DNA from: an uncultured Anaerolineales bacterium
Lineage (GTDB): Bacteria; Chloroflexota; Anaerolineae; B4-G1
NCBI GenBank assembly: GCA_964653285.1
Contig: CAZZEX010000021.1
Span: 1 to 56,735, forward strand
DNA: 56,735 nt
Reading direction: 5' to 3'
Positions 26,419 through 56,441 of the stretch are shown piece by piece (within the stretch, counting starts at the first letter, position 1; the number at the start of each line of letters is the position of its first letter). Both the position numbers and the translations under genes were made by a program. The notes under the pieces were generated by a model. It searched no databases, had not been told where the DNA came from, and was given only the letters and a program-made list of their open reading frames with translations.

Positions 26419-27552
26419 ATGCCTGAATGCATTGTTTGCAAAGGGCACTACGAGGTGGGGCAACGCTGCGAGCGCTGCGGTGCTGACAACAGCGCCTGGG
26501 AGGAGTGGAAACGTGAAGAGGAAGGACTCGGCGCACCGGAGGCCCTGTTGCACTTTCTGGCACCTCATCTCTTCCTGCCTCTGATGGTCGCTGGCTGGGC
26601 ACTGATCTTTGGTCTACTGGGAATGCTCTGGCCCTGGGGCGGGGTCAAGCCGCATGTGCTTGTGCCGGTTATCGCGTTTACCTTCATCGGGTGCATCCTC
26701 GCGGCTGTGGACATCTATGAAAAGCGCTTTGACTTGCGCGAAAAGGAGTTGCTCAGAAAGATCAGGCGGGGACGGAAGAAAGGGATCGGGATCGAAGTGC
26801 GGACTTTGCTTGTGCCCGCCATTGTTCTCAGCCTGGCAATGATTTTGACGCTATCTCTGATACAGAGCGAGACACTTTGGGAGTTAGTGGGATGGCTGGT
26901 GCTCGAACCCCGGCCCGGCGATTCTGGCGTCGAAGAAACGCCTGCGCAACAGGAGGAAACCTCCAGCGAAGGCGCTCCATTGCCCCAGGAGAAACCAGAC
27001 ATCCAAGAGAGGTTCGGGCGGGCTTTTCCTTTGATGTGCCTGAGTGGTTACGTCACCCTTGTTGCTTTCGCCTATTCTTCCTCGCTGATGCTGGCGCGGG
27101 TATACGCCAGGCGGCTGAATGAGCGGCTGCCGCATCCAATCTTTTTGCAAGACGAGAAACTGGCCCAGATTGTACGGCGGGAGGCTGAGGTTGAGTTGGG
27201 CCGGCTCGATCCCAAGAGCACAAACGTGATAAGCCTGATGGGCTATCTGCAGTTCGAGGGCCAGACCGATCCGCAAATTCTTCACCTTTCCCCGAGTGTG
27301 GAGCTGTCAACTGCGGTAGGGGTTCCGTTATCGCCACAGGTTCAGCTGTGGGGCCAGGCCGCCACCTGGGTCTGGGACGAGTTAACCCGCACCGATGATG
27401 GCGGCATCGAGATGAAGGTCGCCCGGCAGGAGATGTACCAACTGCCCCAACCAACTCAGAACTCAGGCCACCGTCCCCACCCACGAGTGTGCTACGTCGT
27501 GCGTGCAGACCCGTGGGGGCACATCATCGAGATCAAGCGGGATATCGAGTAG
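26419..27552 (+). CDS. Membrane protein with N-terminal zinc ribbon (CxxC...CxxC), four TM helices and a cytoplasmic C-terminal region. Function unknown.
   Basis: MPECIVCKGHYEVGQRCERCGAD. Hydrophobic segments. Confidence 0.6.
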   Translation: MPECIVCKGHYEVGQRCERCGADNSAWEEWKREEEGLGAPEALLHFLAPHLFLPLMVAGWALIFGLLGMLWPWGGVKPHVLVPVIAFTFIGCILAAVDIYEKRFDLREKELLRKIRRGRKKGIGIEVRTLLVPAIVLSLAMILTLSLIQSETLWELVGWLVLEPRPGDSGVEETPAQQEETSSEGAPLPQEKPDIQERFGRAFPLMCLSGYVTLVAFAYSSSLMLARVYARRLNERLPHPIFLQDEKLAQIVRREAEVELGRLDPKSTNVISLMGYLQFEGQTDPQILHLSPSVELSTAVGVPLSPQVQLWGQAATWVWDELTRTDDGGIEMKVARQEMYQLPQPTQNSGHRPHPRVCYVVRADPWGHIIEIKRDIE

Positions 27553-27579: not shown

Positions 27580-29274
27580 ATGGAAATCTTGCCGGAAATC
27601 TTGAACGACATATCAATCCTTGTGACGGTTGTGGTCGGGGGCACGGTGGCCACCGTCGCTTTTCTTGGGCTGGCCATGTTCTCGCGGCGCGACGGATTGA
27701 TGGTATTAACGATACGCCTCATCGTAGGGGCGTTCTGCGCCCTCGTCTACCTCGGGCTGGCAATGAGATTCTCGCTCAGCGGCCCGATGGTCGTCTTCTT
27801 GAGCGCCCTGATTGCGGAACCGCTACAAATTCCGCTCTCGTACGTTTGGATGCCCACCAATAAGTGGTTTCGGCGGTGGGTACCCTGCGTCGTGTGGCTT
27901 TATCTCTGGGTCACGGCTCTCATTGGCTGGCGATCCGGATGGCTGGGGCTGCTGATCGTCACGCTGCCGGCGCTCCTCATCGCCGGGCTAGGGCTCTTCT
28001 TTGTGGCCGGCTATCTTTTGCCCTTCCCGAAGCAAGACCTATACCGGGGCAAGCATCCTGCGCCCGGCGCAAGGGGCATACCGACTTTCGGTCAGGAGAT
28101 TCGGGATTTTCTTGATCTCCTTCGCTATCCCCAAAATCGGGAAGCCCGGAAGCAATGTATCGAACAGCGCCGGAAGGCCCTCCAGTGTCTCCTGACGTAT
28201 ACGCTGGGGACGAACCGCCCTTACTACGTCGTCATAGACGAAAAGATCGCAGAACGCGCTGAGGGTACCACTACCTGGTTGACAGAGGAGGAGAAACTGA
28301 TTCAGCGGGTGGATGGCGCTATCTTTGGAGAGTTCCTGGCGGGTCCAGGTATTGTCCTCACTGGCTGCGACCAGGCCGTCGCCATCTCCACTGGCCAGAA
28401 GTTCAAAGGGGCCAAAGGCCCCGGCATCGTCTTCACCGGCTACACTGACCTTCCCGCGCACGTCGTTGACCTGCGAGTGCAGTTATGTGCCTTCCCGGTG
28501 GAGGCCTGGACAAAGGATGGCATCGCCATTAGAGTCACTACGTTCATCCCGTTCCAGATCGGCACAGGCAAAGAAGAACCGGCCCTGGGGCAGGGGTTCC
28601 CCTATCGTTCCAGCGACGTCTTCAAGGCGGTACACGCGCAACTGATGGAGCACGTGGACCCGTCCCAGGTGCCGGAGAGTCTGGAGGAGCAGAAGTGGTA
28701 CGATCTGCCCCGTCTGGCCGGCGAGCGCATCGTGCGCGAGATTATCTCCCGCTACGAGTTCGACGAGCTCTACACGCCATTTGAGTTGCACACAGACCTC
28801 GGCCAGGATCCCCGTTCCAGGATCGGCAAAGAAATGCGAGAGGAACTGAACCAGACACTGCCAGGTTGGGGTATCCAATGCATAGGCTGTGGCATCGGTA
28901 ACATAGTGCCGGTGGACGAGCGCGTGATCGAACAGCGTATCGAGGCCTGGAGGACCGACTGGGCGCGCAAGATCATGCTTCAACAGGCTGCGGGCCAGGC
29001 CAGGCGGCTACGCCTGGTGGAGCAGGCGCGGGCGCAGGCACAGATTGACATCGTCTTGGCTGTCGGCAGACGCCTGGAGCGACTGCGAGCCGCCGGGGGC
29101 CCTGTTCCATTGGACGCCATTGTGCTCTATTTCGTCGAGGTGCTGGAAGAGTTGGCCGGAAGGTCGGCGTTGCGCAAGCTCCTCCCAGGAGATATGGACA
29201 CCATTATACAGCGTGCACGCGGGGCGATCGGAAGGGGGCCAGCCGGCGCGGAGGGGGAACAGACCAATGCGTAG
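27580..29274 (+). CDS. SPFH/band-7 (flotillin-like) domain membrane protein with multi-TM N-terminus, paralog 1.
   Basis: ...GPGIVFTGYTDLPAHVVDLRVQLCAFPVEAWTKDGIAIRVTTFIPFQI... SPFH core. C-terminal coiled-coil (RRLRLVEQARAQAQIDIVLAV). Confidence 0.7.
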   Translation: MEILPEILNDISILVTVVVGGTVATVAFLGLAMFSRRDGLMVLTIRLIVGAFCALVYLGLAMRFSLSGPMVVFLSALIAEPLQIPLSYVWMPTNKWFRRWVPCVVWLYLWVTALIGWRSGWLGLLIVTLPALLIAGLGLFFVAGYLLPFPKQDLYRGKHPAPGARGIPTFGQEIRDFLDLLRYPQNREARKQCIEQRRKALQCLLTYTLGTNRPYYVVIDEKIAERAEGTTTWLTEEEKLIQRVDGAIFGEFLAGPGIVLTGCDQAVAISTGQKFKGAKGPGIVFTGYTDLPAHVVDLRVQLCAFPVEAWTKDGIAIRVTTFIPFQIGTGKEEPALGQGFPYRSSDVFKAVHAQLMEHVDPSQVPESLEEQKWYDLPRLAGERIVREIISRYEFDELYTPFELHTDLGQDPRSRIGKEMREELNQTLPGWGIQCIGCGIGNIVPVDERVIEQRIEAWRTDWARKIMLQQAAGQARRLRLVEQARAQAQIDIVLAVGRRLERLRAAGGPVPLDAIVLYFVEVLEELAGRSALRKLLPGDMDTIIQRARGAIGRGPAGAEGEQTNA

Positions 29275-47951: not shown

Positions 47952-49136
47952 GTGGAGATACTGGTGGAATGCTTGATTGATTTGCAAGAGTTGGACGGCC
48001 CGCGCCTCGTCCGGCGGCAGGAACTGGCGGCCTCGGAGCGGCTGGCGGCGCTGTGCTTTCCCGGTGCAGCAGGGGTGATGGAAGGGATTCGTACGTACAC
48101 CCCACCCCGGCGCGGAGGCATCCAGGTTTTATGCCACCAGGGCGTGCCCGTCTCCCAGATCGGTGTCTACCACAGCCGTGTCAGCGTGTACGGCAGCCAT
48201 CTGCGGGTCGCCAGCATCGGCAGCGTGTGTACCCATCCCGACTACCGGGGCCGGGGCCTGGCTACTCACCTGCTCGACTATTGCACGCGCCAACTGACCG
48301 CTGAAGGCGCACGGCTGATGCTTATCTCCGGCATGCGGGGGCTGTATACCCGGGCCGGCTGCGTCACTGCCCAGGAGTTTGAGTACATCGTGCTCAAGTC
48401 CGATGATCTTAGGACACGGATCAGCAGGATTAACGGATTAAGAGTTCGCCCGGCGACCGAAGCCGATGCCCCACTCTGTGCTCGTCTCTACCAGATGGAA
48501 GCGGTCCACTTCGTGCGGCGCGTGGAGGAGTTCGTTGCCCACTTTCAGCGGCCCGAGGAGTTCTCCAAAGCGAAGGACTGGATCATTGAGGTGGCAGGGC
48601 GGCCAGTGGCCTATCTCTTCACCGGCATTCCCTGGGAGTATCAGCGTGATAAGGATGCGGGCGTGCGGGAAGTGGTCGAGCATGCCGGTAGCCGGGTGGC
48701 GCTGGTTGGTGCGTTGGCCGGGGTGATGGCGCGCCTGAACCTGCGGGAACTGCGGCTGCTCGTGCCGTGGCAGGACGTGGACTTCCTCCAACTTCTCCGA
48801 GAGCAGGGGGCTACTGGGGAGCACATTCCCCTTATCGGGCATACCATGCGCATCGTGGACTTCCCCGGCCTGATGTCGGACCTGCGGCCCTACGTGCGAG
48901 CACGGCTGACAGCCCGACAGCGGCGTGGCCTGCGGTTTGAGCAGGAGGGAGACCGGTATAGTATCGCGCGGGGGCGGGAGCGGCTCGAGCTGGATGGGAA
49001 AGGGATGACGCGGCTGGTGGCGGGAGCGCCGGCCGAGGTAGCCCCCGACGTTCCGGTTGCGCCGGGCGCACTGGGCGAGATCATCCCGGCGCTGTTCCCC
49101 TTGCCCTCGTTTCTGCCGGGGCTGAACTACCGGTGA
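47952..49136 (+). CDS. Eis-like GNAT acetyltransferase with a C-terminal sterol-carrier-like domain.
   Basis: GNAT core ...ASIGSVCTHPDYRGRGLATHLLDY..., second GNAT-like region and SCP2-like tail, arranged as in Eis-family enzymes. Confidence 0.65.
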   Translation: MEILVECLIDLQELDGPRLVRRQELAASERLAALCFPGAAGVMEGIRTYTPPRRGGIQVLCHQGVPVSQIGVYHSRVSVYGSHLRVASIGSVCTHPDYRGRGLATHLLDYCTRQLTAEGARLMLISGMRGLYTRAGCVTAQEFEYIVLKSDDLRTRISRINGLRVRPATEADAPLCARLYQMEAVHFVRRVEEFVAHFQRPEEFSKAKDWIIEVAGRPVAYLFTGIPWEYQRDKDAGVREVVEHAGSRVALVGALAGVMARLNLRELRLLVPWQDVDFLQLLREQGATGEHIPLIGHTMRIVDFPGLMSDLRPYVRARLTARQRRGLRFEQEGDRYSIARGRERLELDGKGMTRLVAGAPAEVAPDVPVAPGALGEIIPALFPLPSFLPGLNYR

Positions 49137-49272
49137 GCGCTGCTTACTTGCTGCCGCCATTGTTGTGAGCGAGCGCTGGTTTGACATCCCCTGACGCGCA
49201 TAGTATACTGGCCGTGAAAATGCTCAAGAAGCATTGTATTGGCTGCAAAGATTGTAAGGAGCCCAATTCGCG

Positions 49273-49605
49273 ATGGACGCGACAACGCTTGAGCCGGAAG
49301 TTCTGGATCGCATTTTTCACTCCCTCTCCCCCGATGATCGGGCGGAGATTCTCAGTGTCGAAGCGGCATTTCGCCGTTTGAGCCTGCAGAAGCGACTGGC
49401 TCTGGCTCAGAGCAAGGTGCAAGCCTTCGAGGCCAAGTATCACACTACTCTTGACCAGCTTGAAGCCGATGGGCTGCTCGACGATGCTGGCTATGCCATG
49501 CACGAAGACTACGTCGAGTGGCACTATTGGTCACGGGTGTTGGAGCAGGCCTGGAAGACGTTGGACGCTCTGGTTGCGATCTCTCCAGCGCCGGAGCCAG
49601 CGTAA
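49273..49605 (+). CDS. Acidic helical protein, the first gene of a three-gene PIN module. Possible antitoxin/accessory.
   Basis: 110 aa, coiled-coil-like. Stop overlaps the PIN start (TAATG). Confidence 0.45.
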   Translation: MDATTLEPEVLDRIFHSLSPDDRAEILSVEAAFRRLSLQKRLALAQSKVQAFEAKYHTTLDQLEADGLLDDAGYAMHEDYVEWHYWSRVLEQAWKTLDALVAISPAPEPA

Positions 49606-50060
49606 TGAGCAATCAGAGCCGGCGCGTCTATTTGGATGTCTGTGCATTGTGCCGTCCTTTTGACGATCAGAGTCAGATCCGTATCCGCCTGGAGACCGAG
49701 GCTGTGCAGTTGATCCTCAGTCACGTCCGGACGGGGAATCTGAGTTTGGTCGTCTCGCCGGTTCACGATGCTGAAATTGCTCCCATTGATGACCTGGCCG
49801 AACGGACACATCTCCAGGTGATGCTCCAGCAAATCGGCCATCGCATCCCTGTGGACCTTACGCAGGCCAGGCAGCGTGCCGAGGCCCTGGTGCAACAGGG
49901 ACTTGGGCCCGCCGACGCAGCTCACCTGGCTTGCGCCGAGCAGGTGAGGGCCGATTCCGTGACCTGTGACGACTGGCTTATTCGTCAGTGTCGGCGGGTC
50001 AAACCGGGCATCTGGTTCGGCACGCCGATTGCGTTCTGTGATAAGGAGAACCTGCGATGA
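49605..50060 (+). CDS. PIN-domain (VapC-like) ribonuclease.
   Basis: RVYLDVCALCRPFDD (first acidic residue), ...VSPVHDAEI..., D-rich C-terminus (DAAHLACAE). 151 aa. Confidence 0.75.
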   Translation: MSNQSRRVYLDVCALCRPFDDQSQIRIRLETEAVQLILSHVRTGNLSLVVSPVHDAEIAPIDDLAERTHLQVMLQQIGHRIPVDLTQARQRAEALVQQGLGPADAAHLACAEQVRADSVTCDDWLIRQCRRVKPGIWFGTPIAFCDKENLR

Positions 50061-50284
50061 AGGCTCAGATTTACCTCCCAGAAGATGTGATGGTGCGACG
50101 CGCTTTGGAAGCATTAATGAATGCCCTCGGACCGGTTGAGATGACTCGTTTTCTCACTCTCCCCCGGCAACGGCGGTTGGATGCGGTTCAACGGCACCGC
50201 CAATGGCAGGCCGGTTTGGACAAAGACCGGTTTTTTGACCAAGTTTTCGGTGCGGCCGTCACTGAGCAGCCCTCTGAGGAGTAA
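50057..50284 (+). CDS. Ribbon-helix-helix (CopG-like) small protein, probable antitoxin partner of the PIN gene.
   Basis: MKAQIYLPEDVMVRRALEAL... has the typical RHH beta-strand plus helix N-terminus. Start overlaps the PIN stop (ATGA). Confidence 0.5.
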   Translation: MKAQIYLPEDVMVRRALEALMNALGPVEMTRFLTLPRQRRLDAVQRHRQWQAGLDKDRFFDQVFGAAVTEQPSEE

Positions 50285-50427
50285 ACTCTTCTCCCCCGCT
50301 GACCCCACCTTCGCCGCATCACTCCCCACCCCACTGCGGCCAGTACCAGGGATACCACGAGTCGGGGATGGATGAGACCTCCACCGGCTCACCGCTGCTG
50401 CCGTCCCGCCCATCAGTCAGACGTGGA

Positions 50428-51063
50428 CTATGGCAGCGGCAGGTCCGTGATGTCCCACACCTTGAGGTTGTCGAAGTACACCCGCAGCGTGGTTTTGTCA
50501 ACGCCACTGTGAACCGCCAGTGAAATCCTGCCTCTGCTCGACGATTCGTCATGGACGAACCACAACGGCTCTCTGTTCATGTAGACCGCAATCCGAGGGC
50601 TCTGAGCAATGATCGTCAAATGGTTTGTTCCCAATCCCTGCTCGAAGGTAGAGGCATACACTGAATATCCCACCAAGTCTGTAATGACCCCACCGACGTT
50701 GCTGTGTAGGTTGAAGGAGCCATCAGGTAGGAAGTTCAAGTTGTAACCGGCGTTACTAGGATCTTCGAGAGTTCCCGGTACATCACGAAAACACACTTCC
50801 CAGCTACCCCATTCGCCGGAGGCGAACTGTGCATCTACCTCCAGGACGAAATCGGAGAACCACAGTGCGCGGCCTGGTGTGGCACCAACGTTCTCATCGG
50901 CTTGCGCTGCTAAGATAAAGTAAGCATCGTCTTCGTAGCCCCATTCGTCTCCATCGGCGTCTGACCCGGTGGGCCACCCGCTCCCTGGATCGCTGAAGTC
51001 ATCCTCGTAATCCGGTGGCCTATCGGCGATGGCGGCCAGGATGGGCTCGGCGAAGGCGCGGGC
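50428..51063 (-). other. In-frame continuation of the Ser/Thr kinase gene past a TAG codon (212 codons, DUF1080/LamG-like jelly-roll domain). Pseudogene segment, sequencing error or stop-codon readthrough.
   Basis: Translating the minus strand from 51063 gives ARAFAEPILAAIADRPPDYEDDFSDPGSGW...GRISLAVHSGVDKTTLRVYFDNLKVWDI with no stop until 50428. No ATG start lies in this stretch; the table ORF uses an internal GTG. Confidence 0.5.
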
Positions 51064-54015
51064 CTAGTCGGCGAGGGAAGAAGCAGTGGGCGCTATGCCG
51101 GTGTCGAGGATCAGGAGTTGAGTGCCGTTGGCCACCAGCACCTCCAGGGCAGGATCGCTGTCCAGGTTTGCCGCCGCCAGGCCGAAGCCACCTTCGTTGT
51201 GGATGGAGTCCAGGGGGTAACCCCATAGCAGGTTGTTGGATCCATCCACGGCGTCCACGGAATAAGGGGGCTCTATCCCATAAAACCGGATTGTGCCCGC
51301 CACGATGTCATCTACTCCATCCCCATTCACATCGCCCACCGCGTGAACGCCGCTGCGGGTTCTGGACCACAGCTCCTCTCCTGTGTTTCCTTTGACCACG
51401 TGAAGGTCACCCGCGAAGGCGGAACTGAATACCACCTCGGTCTGGCCGTCGCCGTTCACATCGCTGGCTGAAACAGAGTCTCCTCCCCGGCTGGTAGCCC
51501 ACTCCTGGCTGCCGCTTGGGTCATAGGAAATGACATTGGCCACCACGGAGACGATTTCGTAAGTCTCGTCATCGTCCACGTCCTCGATGATGACATCCCG
51601 TCCGTGATAACCCTTGGGATGCGACCAGAGGATGCTGCCGGTTGCGCCGTCCAGCAGGAACACCTTGTTGTCATAGTTCTCCACCGCGACCTCCATGTCC
51701 CCATCGCCGTCCACGTCCCGGGCGTCAATGCCCTGGGCATGCCCGCTGCCCAGGGATTGCGACCAGACCCGTTCGCCGGTAGTACCCTCAATGAGGATCA
51801 CCTGCCCGCCACCCCAGGAATACGTGCCCACAGAGGCGACGACATCGGTATCCCCGTCGCCATCTATGTCGCTGTAGGCCAGGTCCACCGCCTCCTCGTA
51901 GTCGCCCAGGGCCTGCCATTTCCTGGTGCCATCCCTGCCCAGGACACAGATGATCGCCTTCCCCTGGCTTGTGGAGTCTCCTTTGCCTGTCCCTACCACA
52001 TCGAGGACGCCGTCATCGTCCACGTCCACCACATCGGCGTTAACGGGTGTGCCCGTCTGGGTGGTGATTCTATAGGACCACAGCTCCTCGCCATTGGCTC
52101 CATTTACGGCGGTCACGTATCCCCCTCCCGTGCCAAAGACCACATCGGGGACACCGTCGTCGTTGAGATCGCCCGTGGTCAGGCCATCGCCCCAGGAGTC
52201 CAGGGACCAGATAACATCTGGGGCAGTGTAGGTCCATTTGACTGTGACGGCAGTGAGCGTCGCCGTTGGGTGCGGGGTGGGCGTATGGGCCGCCGGTGTT
52301 GGTTCAGCAATCGAAGGAGCCAGATCAAGCTTTACGGAATACCAGGCATTTCTCACCCCGGCATATTGGCAGTCATATATCTCCTGAGCGCCTGGCAGTC
52401 CTTCTTTGTCTATATCGCTGCAGTGGAGCCACACGTTACTGTATATGTTGTCGTCGCCGTCCAGGAGCTGCCATTCTATGCCAGGCATCGCCCGGACAGG
52501 GGGATCAAACTCAAAAGTGATCAACCATGAGGCCTTTACCGGCACCTCTGTTCCACTGGGCAGTTCCCTGCTGGTCGCAGTGGATTCTTTATCGCCCAGG
52601 GTCAGCATTAGCTTCGAAGGTCCTGCTTTAACGTGAGTGTAGTAGCTGTCCTCTCTACTGGTCGTTAGATAGAAGGTCACAGCGCTCACGTCACTTTCGG
52701 GGAAGTCCGCTGGCAGATTGCCGTAATGTCGAACTTGACAACCGCAACAAGAGGTTCCCCCTGCCGGCCCATAAAAACCCTCAGTGCGCTCGCCGGAAGA
52801 GGTATAAACCAGCGCGCTCGGGGTTGGGCCAGTCATCGGTGAAGGCGCTGGTGTGGGTGTGACCGAAGCTGTCGCCGTTTCCGTCGGCGTCGCCGTCTCC
52901 TCCACCACCCGCACCACCTCCAGTTGCCCGCCGCTGATCTGTACCTTGAGCGGCACGCGGCTCAGGACGAGGAAGAGGGCCACCAGTGCAGCGATGCCTA
53001 CCGCCACCCACGCGGCCACTCGCCCCCATTTCGCCAGGAGTGGTTTCCGCGCGCGGGCCACTGCCCTTTCGGTTGGCGGCGCGGCTACCTCCGGCACGAC
53101 GGGTTCTACCCTTGCCGCTGGCACCGCCGGCTCAGTCCGCGCTGCCGCCTCCGCCGCCCGCACCGCCCCATCCAGCGCCTGCACCATCTCTCCCGCCGTC
53201 TGGAAGCGGTCGTCGGGCTCCTTGGCCATCGCCCGCAGGATCACCCGCTCCACCTCCTCTGGCAGGTCGGGCCGGATTGAGCGGGGCAGCGGCAGCGGCT
53301 CGGTGATGTGCTTCAGCACCACCGCCAGCGGTGTCTCCGCCTCGTAGGGCGCGTGCCCAGTGACCAGCTCGTACAGCATCACCCCCAGGCTGTAGACGTC
53401 GGTGCGGGAGTCCACTTTGGCTCCCTTGCCCTGCTCGGGGCTCATGTAGGTCGGCGTCCCGATTCCCACCCCCGTGCCGGTCAACTGCACCGACGATTCC
53501 ACCATCTTCGCCAGGCCAAAGTCGGTCAGAAAGGCATCCCCCTCGGCGTCTAGCAGGATGTTGGTCGGCTTCACGTCCCGGTGGATGACCCCCATCCGGT
53601 GGGCGTAGTCCAGCGCGCTGCCCACCTGCCCGATGATGCGGTTGACCTCGCTCAGGGGGAGCGGTCCCTCGACCATCCGGTACTTCAGCGTTCCTGCCTC
53701 CAGGTAGCGCATCACCAGGTAGGGCCTCCCCTCGGCCTCGCCGGAGTCGTAGACGGGGAGGATGTGGGCGTGTTCCAGCCGGGCCACCGCCCGCGCCTCG
53801 CGGCGGAAGCGCCGGAGGAAAGTCTCATCCTGGGCGAAGTGAGACGCGATCACCTTGACCGCCACGTACCGGTCCATCGCCGGCTGGTAGGCTTTGTACA
53901 CCGTCGCCATCCCGCCAGTGCCGATCTGCTCCAGGATGCGATACGGTCCCAGGTGCTGTCCAATCAGGTCATTCATCGTTATACTTATGGTAGCACATTC
54001 TGTTGTCGAAGTCAA
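51064..54015 (-). CDS. Ser/Thr protein kinase (Hanks-type) with one TM helix and an extracellular FG-GAP/VCBS repeat beta-propeller.
   Basis: GTGGMATVYKA, VAVKVI, HRDVKPTNILL, DFGLAK, TM LAKWGRVAAWVAVGIAALVALFLVL, repeated DxDGDGxxD FG-GAP motifs. Ends at TAG 51064-51066, which is followed in-frame by a further 212 codons. Confidence 0.9.
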   Translation of the reverse strand: MTSTTECATISITMNDLIGQHLGPYRILEQIGTGGMATVYKAYQPAMDRYVAVKVIASHFAQDETFLRRFRREARAVARLEHAHILPVYDSGEAEGRPYLVMRYLEAGTLKYRMVEGPLPLSEVNRIIGQVGSALDYAHRMGVIHRDVKPTNILLDAEGDAFLTDFGLAKMVESSVQLTGTGVGIGTPTYMSPEQGKGAKVDSRTDVYSLGVMLYELVTGHAPYEAETPLAVVLKHITEPLPLPRSIRPDLPEEVERVILRAMAKEPDDRFQTAGEMVQALDGAVRAAEAAARTEPAVPAARVEPVVPEVAAPPTERAVARARKPLLAKWGRVAAWVAVGIAALVALFLVLSRVPLKVQISGGQLEVVRVVEETATPTETATASVTPTPAPSPMTGPTPSALVYTSSGERTEGFYGPAGGTSCCGCQVRHYGNLPADFPESDVSAVTFYLTTSREDSYYTHVKAGPSKLMLTLGDKESTATSRELPSGTEVPVKASWLITFEFDPPVRAMPGIEWQLLDGDDNIYSNVWLHCSDIDKEGLPGAQEIYDCQYAGVRNAWYSVKLDLAPSIAEPTPAAHTPTPHPTATLTAVTVKWTYTAPDVIWSLDSWGDGLTTGDLNDDGVPDVVFGTGGGYVTAVNGANGEELWSYRITTQTGTPVNADVVDVDDDGVLDVVGTGKGDSTSQGKAIICVLGRDGTRKWQALGDYEEAVDLAYSDIDGDGDTDVVASVGTYSWGGGQVILIEGTTGERVWSQSLGSGHAQGIDARDVDGDGDMEVAVENYDNKVFLLDGATGSILWSHPKGYHGRDVIIEDVDDDETYEIVSVVANVISYDPSGSQEWATSRGGDSVSASDVNGDGQTEVVFSSAFAGDLHVVKGNTGEELWSRTRSGVHAVGDVNGDGVDDIVAGTIRFYGIEPPYSVDAVDGSNNLLWGYPLDSIHNEGGFGLAAANLDSDPALEVLVANGTQLLILDTGIAPTASSLAD

Positions 54016-54059
54016 CGCCTACGCGCGTGAAACGTGATGCGTGTTGCGTGAGTGGGCAC

Positions 54060-56441
54060 TTAACGCGACGCCGGTGGGGTGGCCCACGGCGGCAAGCGCA
54101 GCGGGAGGCCGGGATGCTCCTCTCCGCTTCGGGGGGGCTGGGGGGGGAGCACGCCCGGCGTTGACCATTGCGCCTCTGAGCCGCTCTCCTCGCCACTTAC
54201 TGGGGATAGCGGCAGGTACAGCGTGTACCCTTGTCCGAAGACGTGCTCGCCCAATCGCTGGGTACAGGTGCTCAGCCGGTTCACCTCTGGCTGGCGCTGC
54301 TGCGCCGGGCAGAACACACGCTGCCAACGGTTGTCCGCCGTCATGCGGTACAGGCCCAGACTGTCCTCATCCAGCCCCATCACATCTGCGTCTGTGTACT
54401 GCCAGGTAACGGTGATTGGAAGGAGCAGAGTCATTAACTCAGACGGGATCGGCTGTCCGTCTCTATACGCGGCCAATGTAAAGGCGGTGACGCCGATCAG
54501 AGGGCCGGGCGGCGACTCGGATGGCAGGCGAGGCGTGAAACGTATCTCCATGGGTCTCGTCACCGTCCCGGCAGGGAATAGGAAGGCCAGGTGGCCGCTG
54601 GCCGAGGTCAGCACGGCAGCGGCATCGGGCTGCAATGTAGTCGTGACGACGACCGGGATCGTCATTTCGACGTAGTTGTTGCCCTCGTCCTGCTCGTCCA
54701 GAACCCCGTCGCTATCTACCTCCAGCGCCAGGCGGTAGATGTCCTCGTTCGGAACGGGCAGAGTCAATTCCTCCACGACAGTCACCTGAGCGCCGGAGCC
54801 GAGGGCCGGGATGGAGAAACGCTGGGCGGGCAGGGTCAGAGTGCCGTGGATGCTGCTCAGGTAAAGTGCGCCAGAAACGGGTAGCGTAGGCCACAACCCC
54901 TCGTTGGTTGTCCTCAGAGTGACGCCTAGCATACCGTCGGGGGTTCCCGGTGAGCGGATGCTCCAGGCCGTCGTCGAAATCAGCAGGTCGGGTCGGGCGT
55001 CCACGGTCACCGTGCAGGTGTTGTTCCAACGGCGCGCGTCGGCCACCGCCTGGGCTGGGTCAGCGATGAGCGACGGATCGTATATCCCAGGTTCAGTGAT
55101 GACGAGCATCGGCACCGGCAGCGGGGCGACGTCCTCCTCGTACCGGGCAGGCACATCCTGGATGAGTTGGAAGCCTGGCAATGGGGAAGTGATGACCACA
55201 CCGGCCGCGGGTACCTGGCCCAGATTGGCGACTGCCCCCGTCACCGGGAGTGTGATGGTCAGCGCATCGTAGGGCACGGTTGGGGTGAGGTGCTTGAGCG
55301 GCTCCGAATTGACCCATAGTTGAGCCGTCAGGTCGATGTAGTCGGCTTGCGTGTCGGTCAGGGCGGCGGTGTAGTCGGCGTAGGTCTGCCCCATTGGGGA
55401 GAGTTCCTTGGAGCCACTGTGAAACAGATAGCCGTTGTAGTACTGATCATCGGACAGGCTGTACCAGGCCCAGGCCTGCACCAGCCGGTAGTCGTCCTCG
55501 GGATAGCCAATGTCCGGATAGGCTTCGTTGAGAAACAGGTCGTAGGTCTGGGTCATAAAGTGGCTCACGCGGGCGGGGGGAAAGGTGCGCCCGTCCTCAT
55601 CCGCGAACCAGTCTGGCCACAGTACCCCGTACTCGCTGATGATCAGCGGTTTATTCTGTCCCCCCTTGTCCTTCATCCACTGGCGCATGGCGATGAAGTG
55701 ATTGCGGAGCACGTCCACGTTGTCGCCGTCGCGGACGGGGTAGTCCATAGCGCAACTGGGATCCACTCCCGGCGGCGTGCTGGCCCCCCAGGAGCCATAC
55801 ACCTCGCGCAGGATAAAGGCGTGCACATTCCACACATCCACCGGCATCGGCTCGCCGTAGGTCTGCTGATACGTGTCCCACACAATGTCCAGGTACTCCA
55901 GCCGGCAGGGGGTGGGCTGGACGATGCCGCCGTTGGCGATGAGAGCGGTGGGGTCCCAACCCTTGATGTAGGTGTAAAAGTCGTGGTAGAGTATGGCATA
56001 GACCTCAGGCAGGATAGGATCGCCCGCGTAGATGGAATCCGGCTCGTTGCTCATAAGCCACAGGGAGCCCGGGTGGGCGGCGGCGATCTGGGCGATGACC
56101 TCCCGGCTGGGGTCCACCGTCACCTGCGCCGGGTCGTGGGGGTCGGCGCCAGCGTGGAAGCGGATCAGTTGCACGTAGGTGAGGCCATCGGGATGGGCTG
56201 GACTGAGGCTGGCGACCCAGTTGCTGTACCATCCGGCGTGGAGCAGGGCGACGTCGTAGCCAGTCAGCGCGCTGCTATCGAAGCCAAAGCGGTCGCGGGG
56301 ATCGGGGTAGGGGGGCAGGAAGTGATGGCCGGAGTGTAGGGTGCGCAACGGGGCCGCTGGAGCGGCGAATGAGAGCAGTGCACCAATGGTCAACAAGAGC
56401 AGCAGACTTAGGAATAGGGGTAACAGTGGTTTTCTCATCAC
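54060..56441 (-). CDS. Secreted glycoside-hydrolase-like protein (clan GH-A-like catalytic region with NEP / SEYG motifs) plus C-terminal CARDB-like beta-sandwich domains.
   Basis: Signal peptide MMRKPLLPLFLSLLLLLTIGAL. ...LWLMSNEPD... and ...LIISEYGVLW... resemble acid/base and nucleophile contexts of GH-A enzymes. C-terminal Ig-like repeats. Confidence 0.55.
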   Translation of the reverse strand: MMRKPLLPLFLSLLLLLTIGALLSFAAPAAPLRTLHSGHHFLPPYPDPRDRFGFDSSALTGYDVALLHAGWYSNWVASLSPAHPDGLTYVQLIRFHAGADPHDPAQVTVDPSREVIAQIAAAHPGSLWLMSNEPDSIYAGDPILPEVYAILYHDFYTYIKGWDPTALIANGGIVQPTPCRLEYLDIVWDTYQQTYGEPMPVDVWNVHAFILREVYGSWGASTPPGVDPSCAMDYPVRDGDNVDVLRNHFIAMRQWMKDKGGQNKPLIISEYGVLWPDWFADEDGRTFPPARVSHFMTQTYDLFLNEAYPDIGYPEDDYRLVQAWAWYSLSDDQYYNGYLFHSGSKELSPMGQTYADYTAALTDTQADYIDLTAQLWVNSEPLKHLTPTVPYDALTITLPVTGAVANLGQVPAAGVVITSPLPGFQLIQDVPARYEEDVAPLPVPMLVITEPGIYDPSLIADPAQAVADARRWNNTCTVTVDARPDLLISTTAWSIRSPGTPDGMLGVTLRTTNEGLWPTLPVSGALYLSSIHGTLTLPAQRFSIPALGSGAQVTVVEELTLPVPNEDIYRLALEVDSDGVLDEQDEGNNYVEMTIPVVVTTTLQPDAAAVLTSASGHLAFLFPAGTVTRPMEIRFTPRLPSESPPGPLIGVTAFTLAAYRDGQPIPSELMTLLLPITVTWQYTDADVMGLDEDSLGLYRMTADNRWQRVFCPAQQRQPEVNRLSTCTQRLGEHVFGQGYTLYLPLSPVSGEESGSEAQWSTPGVLPPQPPRSGEEHPGLPLRLPPWATPPASR

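What the first reader, a model, noticed from the sequence alone, without database searches (positions are those of the whole stretch)
50428..51066. Single in-frame TAG separates a Ser/Thr kinase / FG-GAP protein from a further 212-codon DUF1080/LamG-like domain
The 983-aa kinase ORF ends at TAG (51064-51066), but the same frame stays open for 212 more codons. These encode a convincing jelly-roll domain (...GRISLAVHSGVDKTTLRVYFDNLKVWDI) with no ATG of its own, only an internal GTG. The possibilities are a nonsense pseudogenisation, a sequencing error, or regulated stop-codon readthrough producing two isoforms (kinase with or without a C-terminal carbohydrate-binding-like domain). Local GC drops over 50430-50800, hinting at a domain of different origin.
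Basis: seen in the sequence. Interest (0 to 1): 0.55.

Follow-up and report, generated by a model that had tools for sequence, protein, structure and literature searches.

The report
Nonsense mutation cuts off kinase's lectin-like domain
A single premature TAG stop, real and fixed in this Anaerolineales-like population, has cut the last (sugar-binding-like) domain off a membrane receptor kinase whose relatives encode that domain in one continuous gene; this is an ordinary young domain loss, and nothing found points to programmed read-through.

Summary
It lies on the minus strand. A 970-aa Ser/Thr receptor kinase (983 aa from an upstream TTG) ends at TAG 51064-51066, and the frame stays open for 211 more codons (51063-50431). 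Those codons encode an intact concanavalin-A-like beta-sandwich (AF2 pLDDT 88; sub-threshold PF06439 hit). The TAG is not a sequencing error: six contigs fetched from different samples and runs are 100% identical to the window. TAG is not reassigned: it ends 16 of 38 long ORFs here, including the module itself. The positional ortholog L005 has GAG at this codon. The six closest module copies read Q, E or K there, and none of 28 related genome loci has a stop there; all lie inside long continuous ORFs, several being kinase-TM-...-module proteins. The module has no usable start. The first ATG/GTG/TTG is a GTG at codon 90, which would omit a helix and five strands, and there is no signal peptide. 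There is no RNA structure (z = -0.08) and no Rfam hit, and +4 is G. Most relatives end naturally just after the propeller, and the ortholog has lost the module too. Best reading: a recent one-base nonsense mutation that severs a dispensable C-terminal module. Only incidental low-level read-through is plausible. Interest is low.

The parts
51067..53976 (-). Coding sequence of the truncated receptor Ser/Thr kinase (970 aa from the ATG; the mechanical ORF from the TTG at 54015 is 983 aa)
   Evidence: Identical to database protein P0037. Pfam Pkinase 173.8 bits.
53200..53943 (-). Cytoplasmic Hanks-type kinase domain (aa 12-259). VAVK (38), HRDVKPTN (132), DFG (152) and SPE (179) are all present.
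52960..53019 (-). Single predicted transmembrane segment (aa 320-339, VAAWVAVGIAALVALFLVLS). Everything after it would be extracytoplasmic.
   Evidence: Read from the sequence. The topology is inferred, not tested.
52312..52815 (-). Variable middle extracellular domain (aa 388-555), low GC3. The ortholog L005 has a PD40/Tricorn-like domain in its place.
51106..52245 (-). FG-GAP/PQQ-like beta-propeller (aa 578-957), about 80% identical to the propellers of P0038-P0041
51067..51105 (-). Thirteen-residue linker tail DTGIAPTASSLAD. Its 'SLAD' matches the conserved SLA[DE][QE] lead-in of the module family.
51064..51066 (-). Premature in-frame TAG, in the context GAC-TAG-GCC. The site is GAG in the positional ortholog and CAG/GAG/AAG in paralogs.
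50431..51063 (-). Severed C-terminal module of 211 codons: an N-terminal helix (ARAFAEPILAAIADRPPDY) followed by a 14-strand concanavalin-A-like/DUF1080-like beta-sandwich. It is still intact.
50428..50430 (-). Original stop codon (TAG) of the ancestral full-length gene
50428..50796 (-). The 122-aa GTG ORF that gene callers report (P0001). It starts at module residue 90, so it lacks the helix and five strands. It is a gene-calling artefact, not a functional gene.

Best explanation
The locus encodes a single-pass receptor Ser/Thr kinase. Its ancestral form was kinase - TM - variable domain - FG-GAP propeller - short linker - C-terminal ConA-like (DUF1080/CBM66-like) module, all in one ORF. A one-base substitution changed the first base of the linker codon just before the module's conserved ARAFAEP helix (GAG or CAG to TAG). 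Translation therefore now ends 13 residues after the propeller. The product is a 970-aa kinase with the same end point as most of its natural relatives, so it is probably still functional. The 211-codon module downstream is a young, not yet decayed relic: it is probably still transcribed but not translated. At most, near-cognate tRNA-Gln misreading of UAG yields traces of full-length protein. What is shown: the stop is real, the site is a sense codon in relatives, the fused architecture is the norm, and the module has no start of its own. What is inferred: the truncated kinase works, the event is recent, and read-through is only background.
For: 1. The TAG is real and fixed. Contigs L001, L002 and L006-L009, from JGI 3300031651, 3300031278 and 3300031575 and from SRR8556697, SRR9694931 and SRR9707989, are 100% identical to the window over 2.1-7.5 kb, TAG included.

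2. The site is a sense codon elsewhere.
- The positional ortholog L005 has the same neighbours on both sides: CARDB protein at 57% aa identity, and acetyltransferase plus UvrD.
- L005 reads ...CTC GCC GAC GAG GCA CGC... straight through this position.
- The closest modules (60-67% aa identity) sit in continuous ORFs reading ...SPADQ/E/K-ARAFAEP. These include kinase-TM-X-module proteins L012 (1249 aa), L013 (820 aa) and L090 (1361 codons).
- None of 28 genome loci has a stop at this position.

3. Homology spans the stop: SLAD*ARAFAEP here against SLAEEARAFAEP and (S/T)PADQARAFAEP in relatives.

4. The module cannot be expressed on its own. There is no ATG, and the first GTG is at residue 90, past the helix and five strands of the AF2 model. 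There is no signal peptide, although the domain belongs outside the cell. The apparent stand-alone 'MAEQ...' modules in the database are not independent genes: L098 is open to its contig edge, two others start 51-53 nt from an edge (no DNA held), and L097 is split by a frameshift.

5. TAG is a normal stop here, ending 16 of 38 long ORFs.

6. The module is dispensable. Most family kinases end 2-10 residues after the propeller, and L005 has lost all but 30 codons of the module.

7. The module is not decayed. It keeps all family-invariant residues and has 6 singleton deviations, against 2-8 in its six closest homologs. This fits a recent event.
Against: - An intact 211-codon ORF that keeps every invariant residue is also what a functional, read-through-dependent domain would look like.
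- No relatives at 90-99% identity were found, so selection on the module since the mutation could not be measured.
- The TAG allele is the only one seen, so there is no polymorphism to show the direction or age of the change.
- Read-level data were not available; only assemblies were compared.
- The samples may come from one study site, so 'fixed' means fixed in this sampled population only.
Confidence: 0.8

Rival explanations
1. The TAG is a leaky or regulated stop, and the cell makes two isoforms: the kinase with and without the C-terminal lectin-like module.
For: The downstream frame is open for 211 codons and keeps all family-invariant residues. No terminator-like site lies between the TAG and the module's end, so the two are probably co-transcribed. 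UAG is the stop most often read through in bacterial pseudogenes, mostly as Gln, and Gln is the commonest residue at this position in the relatives examined. The -1 base is C, as in many such cases (PMC9122581; PMC5289835).
Against: No homolog has a stop at this site: it is a sense codon in the positional ortholog and in the closest module copies, and 0 of 28 genome loci have a stop there. The flanking RNA folds no better than shuffled sequence (z = -0.08), and there is no Rfam match. The +4 base is G, not the C that favours read-through. TAG is a common genuine stop here. The ortholog has lost the module altogether. Three changes sit in the most conserved motif (IIAQGPQIAVYVNGEP has become IIAQSPRIAVYMNREP).
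Confidence: 0.08
2. The TAG is a sequencing or assembly error, and the real gene is continuous.
For: A single-base difference from a sense codon is the commonest kind of error.
Against: Six contigs fetched from different JGI samples and SRA runs are base-for-base identical to the window across the site.
Confidence: 0.02
3. The downstream module is an independent gene, expressed from a non-canonical start or by re-initiation after the TAG.
For: Gene callers report a 122-aa GTG ORF (P0001) and a 77-aa ORF here. Some database entries look like stand-alone modules beginning MA[DE]QARAFAEP.
Against: The GTG ORF begins at residue 90 of a 211-residue single-domain fold and lacks the helix and five strands. 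No ATG/GTG/TTG lies in the first 89 codons. There is no signal peptide for a domain that is extracellular in all relatives. The 'stand-alone' entries are not independent genes: L098 is open to its contig edge, two others start 51-53 nt from a contig edge (no DNA held), and L097 is split by a frameshift. In all 28 genome loci the module lies inside a longer ORF.
Confidence: 0.03
4. The TAG is the ancestral stop of a propeller-terminated kinase, and the module is the remnant of a neighbouring gene that happens to lie in frame.
For: Most family members do end right after the propeller. The family is a domain mosaic.
Against: The positional ortholog reads through this exact codon for 30 further module codons. 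Module-family homology (SLAD|ARAFAEP) spans the stop. There is no spacer, start or signal sequence between the two parts.
Confidence: 0.03
5. UAG is recoded genome-wide or at specific sites (pyrrolysine, or TAG = Gln).
For: The relatives examined most often have Gln at this site.
Against: TAG ends 16 of 38 long ORFs in the window, including the module's own ORF. No tRNA gene lies in the window. No other gene in the window shows an internal TAG with homology running across it.
Confidence: 0.01

Closest known systems
Bacterial pseudogenes and domain truncations caused by nonsense mutation, including the 'pseudo-pseudogenes' of Salmonella Typhi/Paratyphi A (PMC9122581)
   Same: A single in-frame UAG sits at a position that is a sense codon in orthologs. 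Homology continues downstream in the same frame. Low-level Gln insertion at UAG is plausible.
   Different: Only the last domain is cut off here. The remaining protein matches the natural architecture of many relatives, so the gene as a whole is probably not a pseudogene. No expression data exist for this uncultured organism.
Hanks-type receptor Ser/Thr kinases of Chloroflexota/Anaerolineae with modular extracellular regions (e.g. 'protein kinase [Anaerolineae bacterium]', P0057/P0064/P0065)
   Same: It has an N-terminal Pkinase domain, one TM segment, PT-rich linkers, and FG-GAP/PQQ-like propeller extracellular domains. It is 56-82% identical to relatives over the propeller.
   Different: This copy carried an extra C-terminal ConA-like module, as L012, L013 and L090 do, and that module is now severed by the TAG.
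DUF1080 / 3-keto-disaccharide hydrolase family (Pfam PF06439) and the CBM66 / GH16 concanavalin-A-like beta-sandwiches
   Same: The predicted fold matches CBM66 (4b1m, TM about 0.8 over the target), DUF1080 structures (4jqt, 3u1x) and GH16 enzymes. The C-terminal strand motif FDN(L/F)K(V/I)W and the DDFS...W first strand are typical of the family.
   Different: The Pfam score is just below the gathering threshold. This subfamily has a distinctive, highly conserved N-terminal helix (ARAFAEPILAAIADRPPDY). No ligand or catalytic residues were established.
Programmed stop-codon read-through (Q-beta A1 protein, MuLV gag-pol, plant virus read-through proteins)
   Same: One in-frame stop is followed by a long in-frame domain-coding extension with no start of its own.
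   Different: The stop is not conserved, there is no stimulatory context or structure, and relatives encode a sense codon at the site.

Membership tests
Nonsense-truncated gene (domain-level pseudogenisation) | The in-frame stop is at a position that is a sense codon in orthologs and paralogs | tested here: met
   L005 has GAG. The six closest modules read Q, E or K just before ARAFAEP, and none of 28 genome loci has a stop there.
Nonsense-truncated gene (domain-level pseudogenisation) | Homology to the full-length family continues in the same frame beyond the stop | tested here: met
   The 211 codons align end to end with modules at 60-67% identity. The SLAD|ARAFAEP motif spans the stop.
Nonsense-truncated gene (domain-level pseudogenisation) | The stop is real (reproducible), not an error | tested here: met
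   Six identical contigs fetched from separate samples and runs. Read-level data were not examined.
Nonsense-truncated gene (domain-level pseudogenisation) | The downstream part is not translated | not testable with these tools
   This needs proteomics or ribosome profiling.
Programmed stop-codon read-through | The stop codon is conserved at the same site across homologs | tested here: not met
   No homolog has a stop there.
Programmed stop-codon read-through | A stimulatory 3' context or downstream RNA structure | tested here: not met
   Fold z-score is -0.08 against shuffles. There is no Rfam hit. The +4 base is G, whereas C is favoured (PMC9122581).
Programmed stop-codon read-through | Both the short and the extended protein are produced | not testable with these tools
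   There are no expression data.
Pyrrolysine / UAG reassignment | UAG is rare or absent as a genuine terminator | tested here: not met
   TAG ends 16 of 38 long ORFs.
Pyrrolysine / UAG reassignment | pylTSBCD genes or a tRNA(CUA) are present | not tested
   No tRNA lies in the 56.7-kb window. The rest of the genome was not available.
Pfam PF06439 (DUF1080 / 3-keto-disaccharide hydrolase) | HMM score at or above the gathering threshold | tested here: not met
   25.6 bits against a 26.8 cut-off, E = 1.5e-5. Many homologs carry precomputed PF06439 hits. The module is therefore treated as DUF1080-like, not as a certified member.
Pfam PF06439 (DUF1080 / 3-keto-disaccharide hydrolase) | Concanavalin-A-like beta-sandwich fold | tested here: met
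   AF2 pLDDT 88, pTM 0.88. Foldseek hits to CBM66, GH16 and the DUF1080 structures 4jqt and 3u1x at E from 1e-9 to 1e-6.
Hanks-type Ser/Thr protein kinase (PF00069) | HMM above threshold and catalytic motifs (VAVK, HRD, DFG, APE-like) | tested here: met
   173.8 bits. VAVK38, HRDVKPTN132, DFG152 and SPE179 are present.

The most novel reading that the evidence does not exclude
The TAG is a genuinely leaky stop, decoded as Gln by near-cognate tRNA at a physiologically meaningful rate. An Anaerolineales bacterium would then make a receptor kinase in two forms, with and without an extracellular carbohydrate-binding-like module. That would be a chromosomal bacterial example of functional stop-codon read-through that arose very recently.
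Probability: 0.05. Interest if true: 0.6.

Novelty: already known. Interest (0 to 1): 0.15.

Why it matters
The practical value is for annotation. The 122-aa and 77-aa 'hypothetical proteins' called downstream of the kinase are fragments of a severed domain and should be flagged as such. The kinase should be annotated as C-terminally truncated relative to its ancestral form.

For evolution it is a small, clean snapshot of domain loss in a modular receptor-kinase family. The same terminal module was removed by a point nonsense mutation in one lineage and by deletion or replacement in the positional ortholog. The result converges on the shorter architecture that most relatives already have. It does not open a new mechanistic question unless read-through is demonstrated.

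Tried and rejected
- **Sense allele in the population.** I scanned metagenome contigs for the exact pattern CTCGCCGACNAGGCNCGCGCCTTCGCCGAGCC. It returned 0 hits, not even the known JGI contigs, so that collection does not hold these samples and the test was uninformative.
- **Intermediate relatives.** A protein scan of metagenome contigs across the junction gave only 7 loci, none closer than 66% identity. dN/dS after the TAG could therefore not be estimated.
- **Decay of the module.** Singleton deviations at otherwise invariant columns number 6, against 2-8 in homologs, so there is no signal.
- **Gene conversion or a 'recombination handle' at the conserved 30-codon head of the module.** Third-position identity is 60-83% among close copies. 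I judged this explicable by codon bias and strong amino-acid conservation, so it was not pursued.
- **Stand-alone module genes.** I followed up three of the entries that start at or next to the MA[DE]Q lead-in (P0016 and P0023 with ATG, P0019 with GTG). L098 is open to its contig edge, two copies start 51-53 nt from a contig edge with no DNA held, and L097 is split by a frameshift.
- **TAG reassignment.** Rejected from stop-codon usage. No tRNA gene lies in the window.
- **RNA element at the junction.** Rejected.
- **Terminator between the TAG and the module end.** None found.
- **A second TAG-interrupted gene at 26419-27552 / 27580-29274.** The downstream gene has its own ATG nine codons on and begins with TM segments. 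I judged it an ordinary in-frame neighbour.
Full report
**Observation.** The feature is real and lies on the minus strand.
- The mechanical ORF 51064..54015(-) is 983 aa from a TTG. Homologs and the identical database protein P0037 begin at the ATG at 53976 (MNDLIGQHLGPYRILEQIG...), which gives 970 aa.
- The ORF ends at TAG (plus-strand 'cta', 51064-51066).
- The same frame stays open for 211 sense codons (51063-50431) to another TAG at 50428-50430.
- The extension has no ATG. Its first canonical start is the GTG at 50796, which begins the 122-aa ORF that gene callers report as P0001.
- Among 37 long ORFs in the window, the in-frame open stretch after the stop has a median of about 26 codons. 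Only this case (211) and one ordinary in-frame neighbour exceed 140.

**Anatomy of the gene.**
- Pfam finds Pkinase (aa 12-259, 173.8 bits) and FG-GAP/PQQ-like propeller repeats.
- The catalytic motifs VAVK38, HRD132, DFG152 and SPE179 are intact.
- One hydrophobic segment (aa 320-339) separates the cytoplasmic kinase from the rest. The rest comprises PT-rich linkers, a variable middle domain (aa 388-555) and the propeller (aa 578-957).
- A 13-residue tail, DTGIAPTASSLAD, precedes the TAG.
- The 211-residue extension hits PF06439 (DUF1080 / 3-keto-disaccharide hydrolase) at E = 1.5e-5. At 25.6 bits this is just under the 26.8 gathering cut-off.
- An AlphaFold2 model built on an 11-sequence alignment is confident (pLDDT 88, pTM 0.88). 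It shows an N-terminal helix (residues 2-12) followed by a 14-strand beta-sandwich.
- Foldseek against the PDB returns CBM66, GH16 glucanases and the DUF1080 structures 4jqt and 3u1x at E from 1e-9 to 1e-6.

**Is the TAG an error? No.** Look-ups by exact protein sequence returned contigs from JGI samples 3300031651, 3300031278 and 3300031575 and from Logan assemblies of SRR8556697, SRR9694931 and SRR9707989. All are 100% identical to the window over 2.1-7.5 kb, TAG included. No alternative allele was seen. A direct pattern scan for a CAG or GAG allele was uninformative, because that collection does not hold these samples.

**Is TAG a stop in this organism? Yes.** Of 38 long open frames in the window, 16 end in TAG, 16 in TGA and 6 in TAA. 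The module's own ORF ends in TAG. The window has no tRNA gene.

**What do relatives have at this codon?**
- Locus L005 (JGI 3300057034) is a positional ortholog.
  - Its neighbours match on both sides: the upstream CARDB-domain protein is 57% identical, and the GNAT acetyltransferase and UvrD helicase follow downstream.
  - Its kinase and propeller are about 80% identical to the window at the nucleotide level.
  - At the TAG position L005 reads GAG...CTC GCC GAC GAG GCA CGC GCC TTC GCC GAG CCC... It continues for 30 codons into the module (ARAFAEPILAAIADRAPDYDEDFSNPGSG).
- A genome scan returned 80 loci, nearly all from Anaerolineales/Chloroflexota MAGs.
  - In all 28 loci that include the module's N-terminus, the module lies inside a longer continuous ORF, with 17 to 1412 codons upstream. 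None has a stop before ARAFAEP.
- The closest modules (60-67% identity) are preceded by ...SPADQ...NPADE...PLAEQ or ...SPADK.
  - Several belong to the same kind of protein. L012 is kinase(MNNLIGQHLGAYRVLEQIG...)-TM-BNR-like-module (1249 aa). L013 is kinase-TM-LamG-like-module (820 aa). L090 is kinase-TM-PD40-module-LamG-module (1361 codons).
- CAG, GAG and AAG are each one substitution from TAG.
- Family homology also spans the stop: SLAD*ARAFAEP here, against SLAEEARAFAEP and PADQARAFAEP elsewhere.
- The ancestral gene was therefore one ORF, and the TAG is a derived nonsense mutation.

**Can the module be expressed alone? Very unlikely.**
- No ATG, GTG or TTG occurs in its first 89 codons.
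- The GTG ORF would start at residue 90 of a single-domain fold and would lack the helix and five strands.
- There is no signal peptide, although in every relative the domain lies C-terminal to a TM segment or a signal sequence.
- Database entries that look like stand-alone modules (MA[DE]QARAFAEP...) are not independent genes. In L098 the frame is open to the contig edge. Two other copies start 51-53 nt from a contig edge, but their DNA was not held. In L097 a kinase-TM-PT-linker-module gene is split by a frameshift in a C10 run.

**Is there a read-through signal? None found.**
- The 151 nt around the TAG fold no better than shuffled sequence (z = -0.08).
- Rfam finds nothing in 49000-54500 at E up to 1.
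- The context is GAC-UAG-G. In Salmonella pseudogenes that are read through, UAG predominates and is mostly decoded as Gln. C is favoured at both -1 and +4 (PMC9122581). Here -1 is C but +4 is G.
- tRNA-Gln(CUG) misreading of UAG is documented in E. coli (cited in PMC5289835). Trace full-length protein carrying Gln, the commonest residue at this site in the relatives examined, is therefore plausible as background. That is not evidence of a programmed event.
- No terminator-like site lies between the TAG and the module's end, so the relic is probably still co-transcribed.

**Is the module dispensable?**
- Most relatives of the kinase (P0039, P0041, P0044, P0045 and others; 765-786 aa) end 2-10 residues after the propeller (...LVANGTQLLALDP*). 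The truncated product therefore has a natural architecture.
- In L005 the ORF stops at TGA exactly where the window has the TGG of GSGW, and similarity is lost from there. L005's 136-nt spacer matches nothing in the window.
- Window 49137-50975 has no counterpart in L005. This stretch holds the rest of the module and three small plus-strand genes, including a PIN-domain protein.
- Two lineages have thus lost the same terminal module by different routes.

**Age of the event.**
- The module keeps every family-invariant residue.
- It shows 6 singleton deviations at otherwise invariant columns, within the range of 2-8 for its six nearest homologs.
- Three of those deviations hit the most conserved motif (IIAQGPQIAVYVNGEP has become IIAQSPRIAVYMNREP). 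This is suggestive but not significant.
- The data fit a recent mutation and cannot by themselves exclude continued function.

**GC dip.**
- The module has GC 0.564 and GC3 0.654, against 0.629 and 0.751 for the kinase ORF.
- Codons 400-600 of that ORF are lower still (0.555 and 0.59).
- Homologous modules in other MAGs have GC 0.50-0.555.
- The family is clearly a domain mosaic: the middle domain differs between the window and L005. The dip itself says little.

**Verdict.**
- This is an ordinary, well-documented kind of event. A single-base nonsense mutation, fixed in the sampled population, severs a dispensable C-terminal ConA-like module from a receptor Ser/Thr kinase and leaves a young, intact relic ORF. 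Confidence is about 0.8.
- Regulated read-through remains formally possible (about 0.05-0.08) but has no positive support.
- Novelty: already known. Interest: low.

Noticed in passing
window 49273-50284 (+ strand): ORFs 49273-49605, 49605-50060, 50057-50284: Three small, tightly packed or overlapping genes (110 aa; 151 aa with a PIN domain at 25.8 bits; 75 aa) lie convergent to the kinase/module gene. Together with the distal 550 nt of the module they have no counterpart in the positional ortholog L005. This looks like a toxin-antitoxin-like cassette inside an indel region.
   Followed up: partly
L097 3900-4010 (JGI 3300056906, Ga0568920_0012931): A kinase-TM-PT-linker-module gene is split into a 415-aa kinase ORF and a 234-aa GTG-started module ORF. 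The cause is a frameshift inside a C10 homopolymer run in the PT linker. It is either an assembly error or a slippage-prone tract.
   Followed up: partly
L003 959-2326 and L004 (two JGI samples, 3300028917 and 3300027893): A tandem pair of the same modules. Module 1 has no start codon and follows a beta-helix-repeat gene in another frame. Module 2 carries a frameshift at FSDFV|LEINGRF. Both samples show the same disruptions, so these modules appear to be disrupted repeatedly.
   Followed up: partly
window 52312-52815 (-), kinase aa 388-555: The middle extracellular domain has unusually low GC3 (about 0.59, against 0.75 for the whole ORF). L005 has a PD40/Tricorn-like domain at the same place, although the flanking kinase and propeller are about 80% identical. 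This is evidence of domain swapping within an orthologous locus.
   Followed up: partly
window 26419-27552 and 27580-29274 (+): A 377-aa gene ends in TAG and is followed in the same frame, nine codons later, by a 564-aa Band_7/SPFH-domain gene with its own ATG and N-terminal TM segments. It was judged an ordinary in-frame neighbour, but homologs were not checked for a fused form.
   Followed up: partly
module head, window 50974-51063 (-), and loci L003, L010, L090, L020 and others: The first 30 codons of the module (ARAFAEPILAAIADRPPDYEDDFSDPGSGW) are 90-97% conserved in amino acids and 83-92% in nucleotides among copies that are only 40-67% identical overall. Metagenome contigs often break 50-65 nt upstream of this head (P0016, P0023). 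That would fit a repeat that fragments assemblies.
   Followed up: partly
contig of P0030 (JGI 3300042731, no DNA available): An FG-GAP protein ends ...SPADQARAFAEPILAAIADRPPDYEDDFGDPTSGWPTPPSDLDTRKIICK*. The module is cut off about 33 residues in, and a UvrD tudor-domain gene tail follows immediately. This may be a third independent truncation of the module next to uvrD.
   Followed up: no
Metagenome-contig collection: An exact 32-nt pattern taken from the window found nothing, although identical JGI contigs exist (Ga0315543_1007563, Ga0307431_1022694, Ga0315532_1001279). Negative results from that collection therefore do not cover these samples.
   Followed up: no
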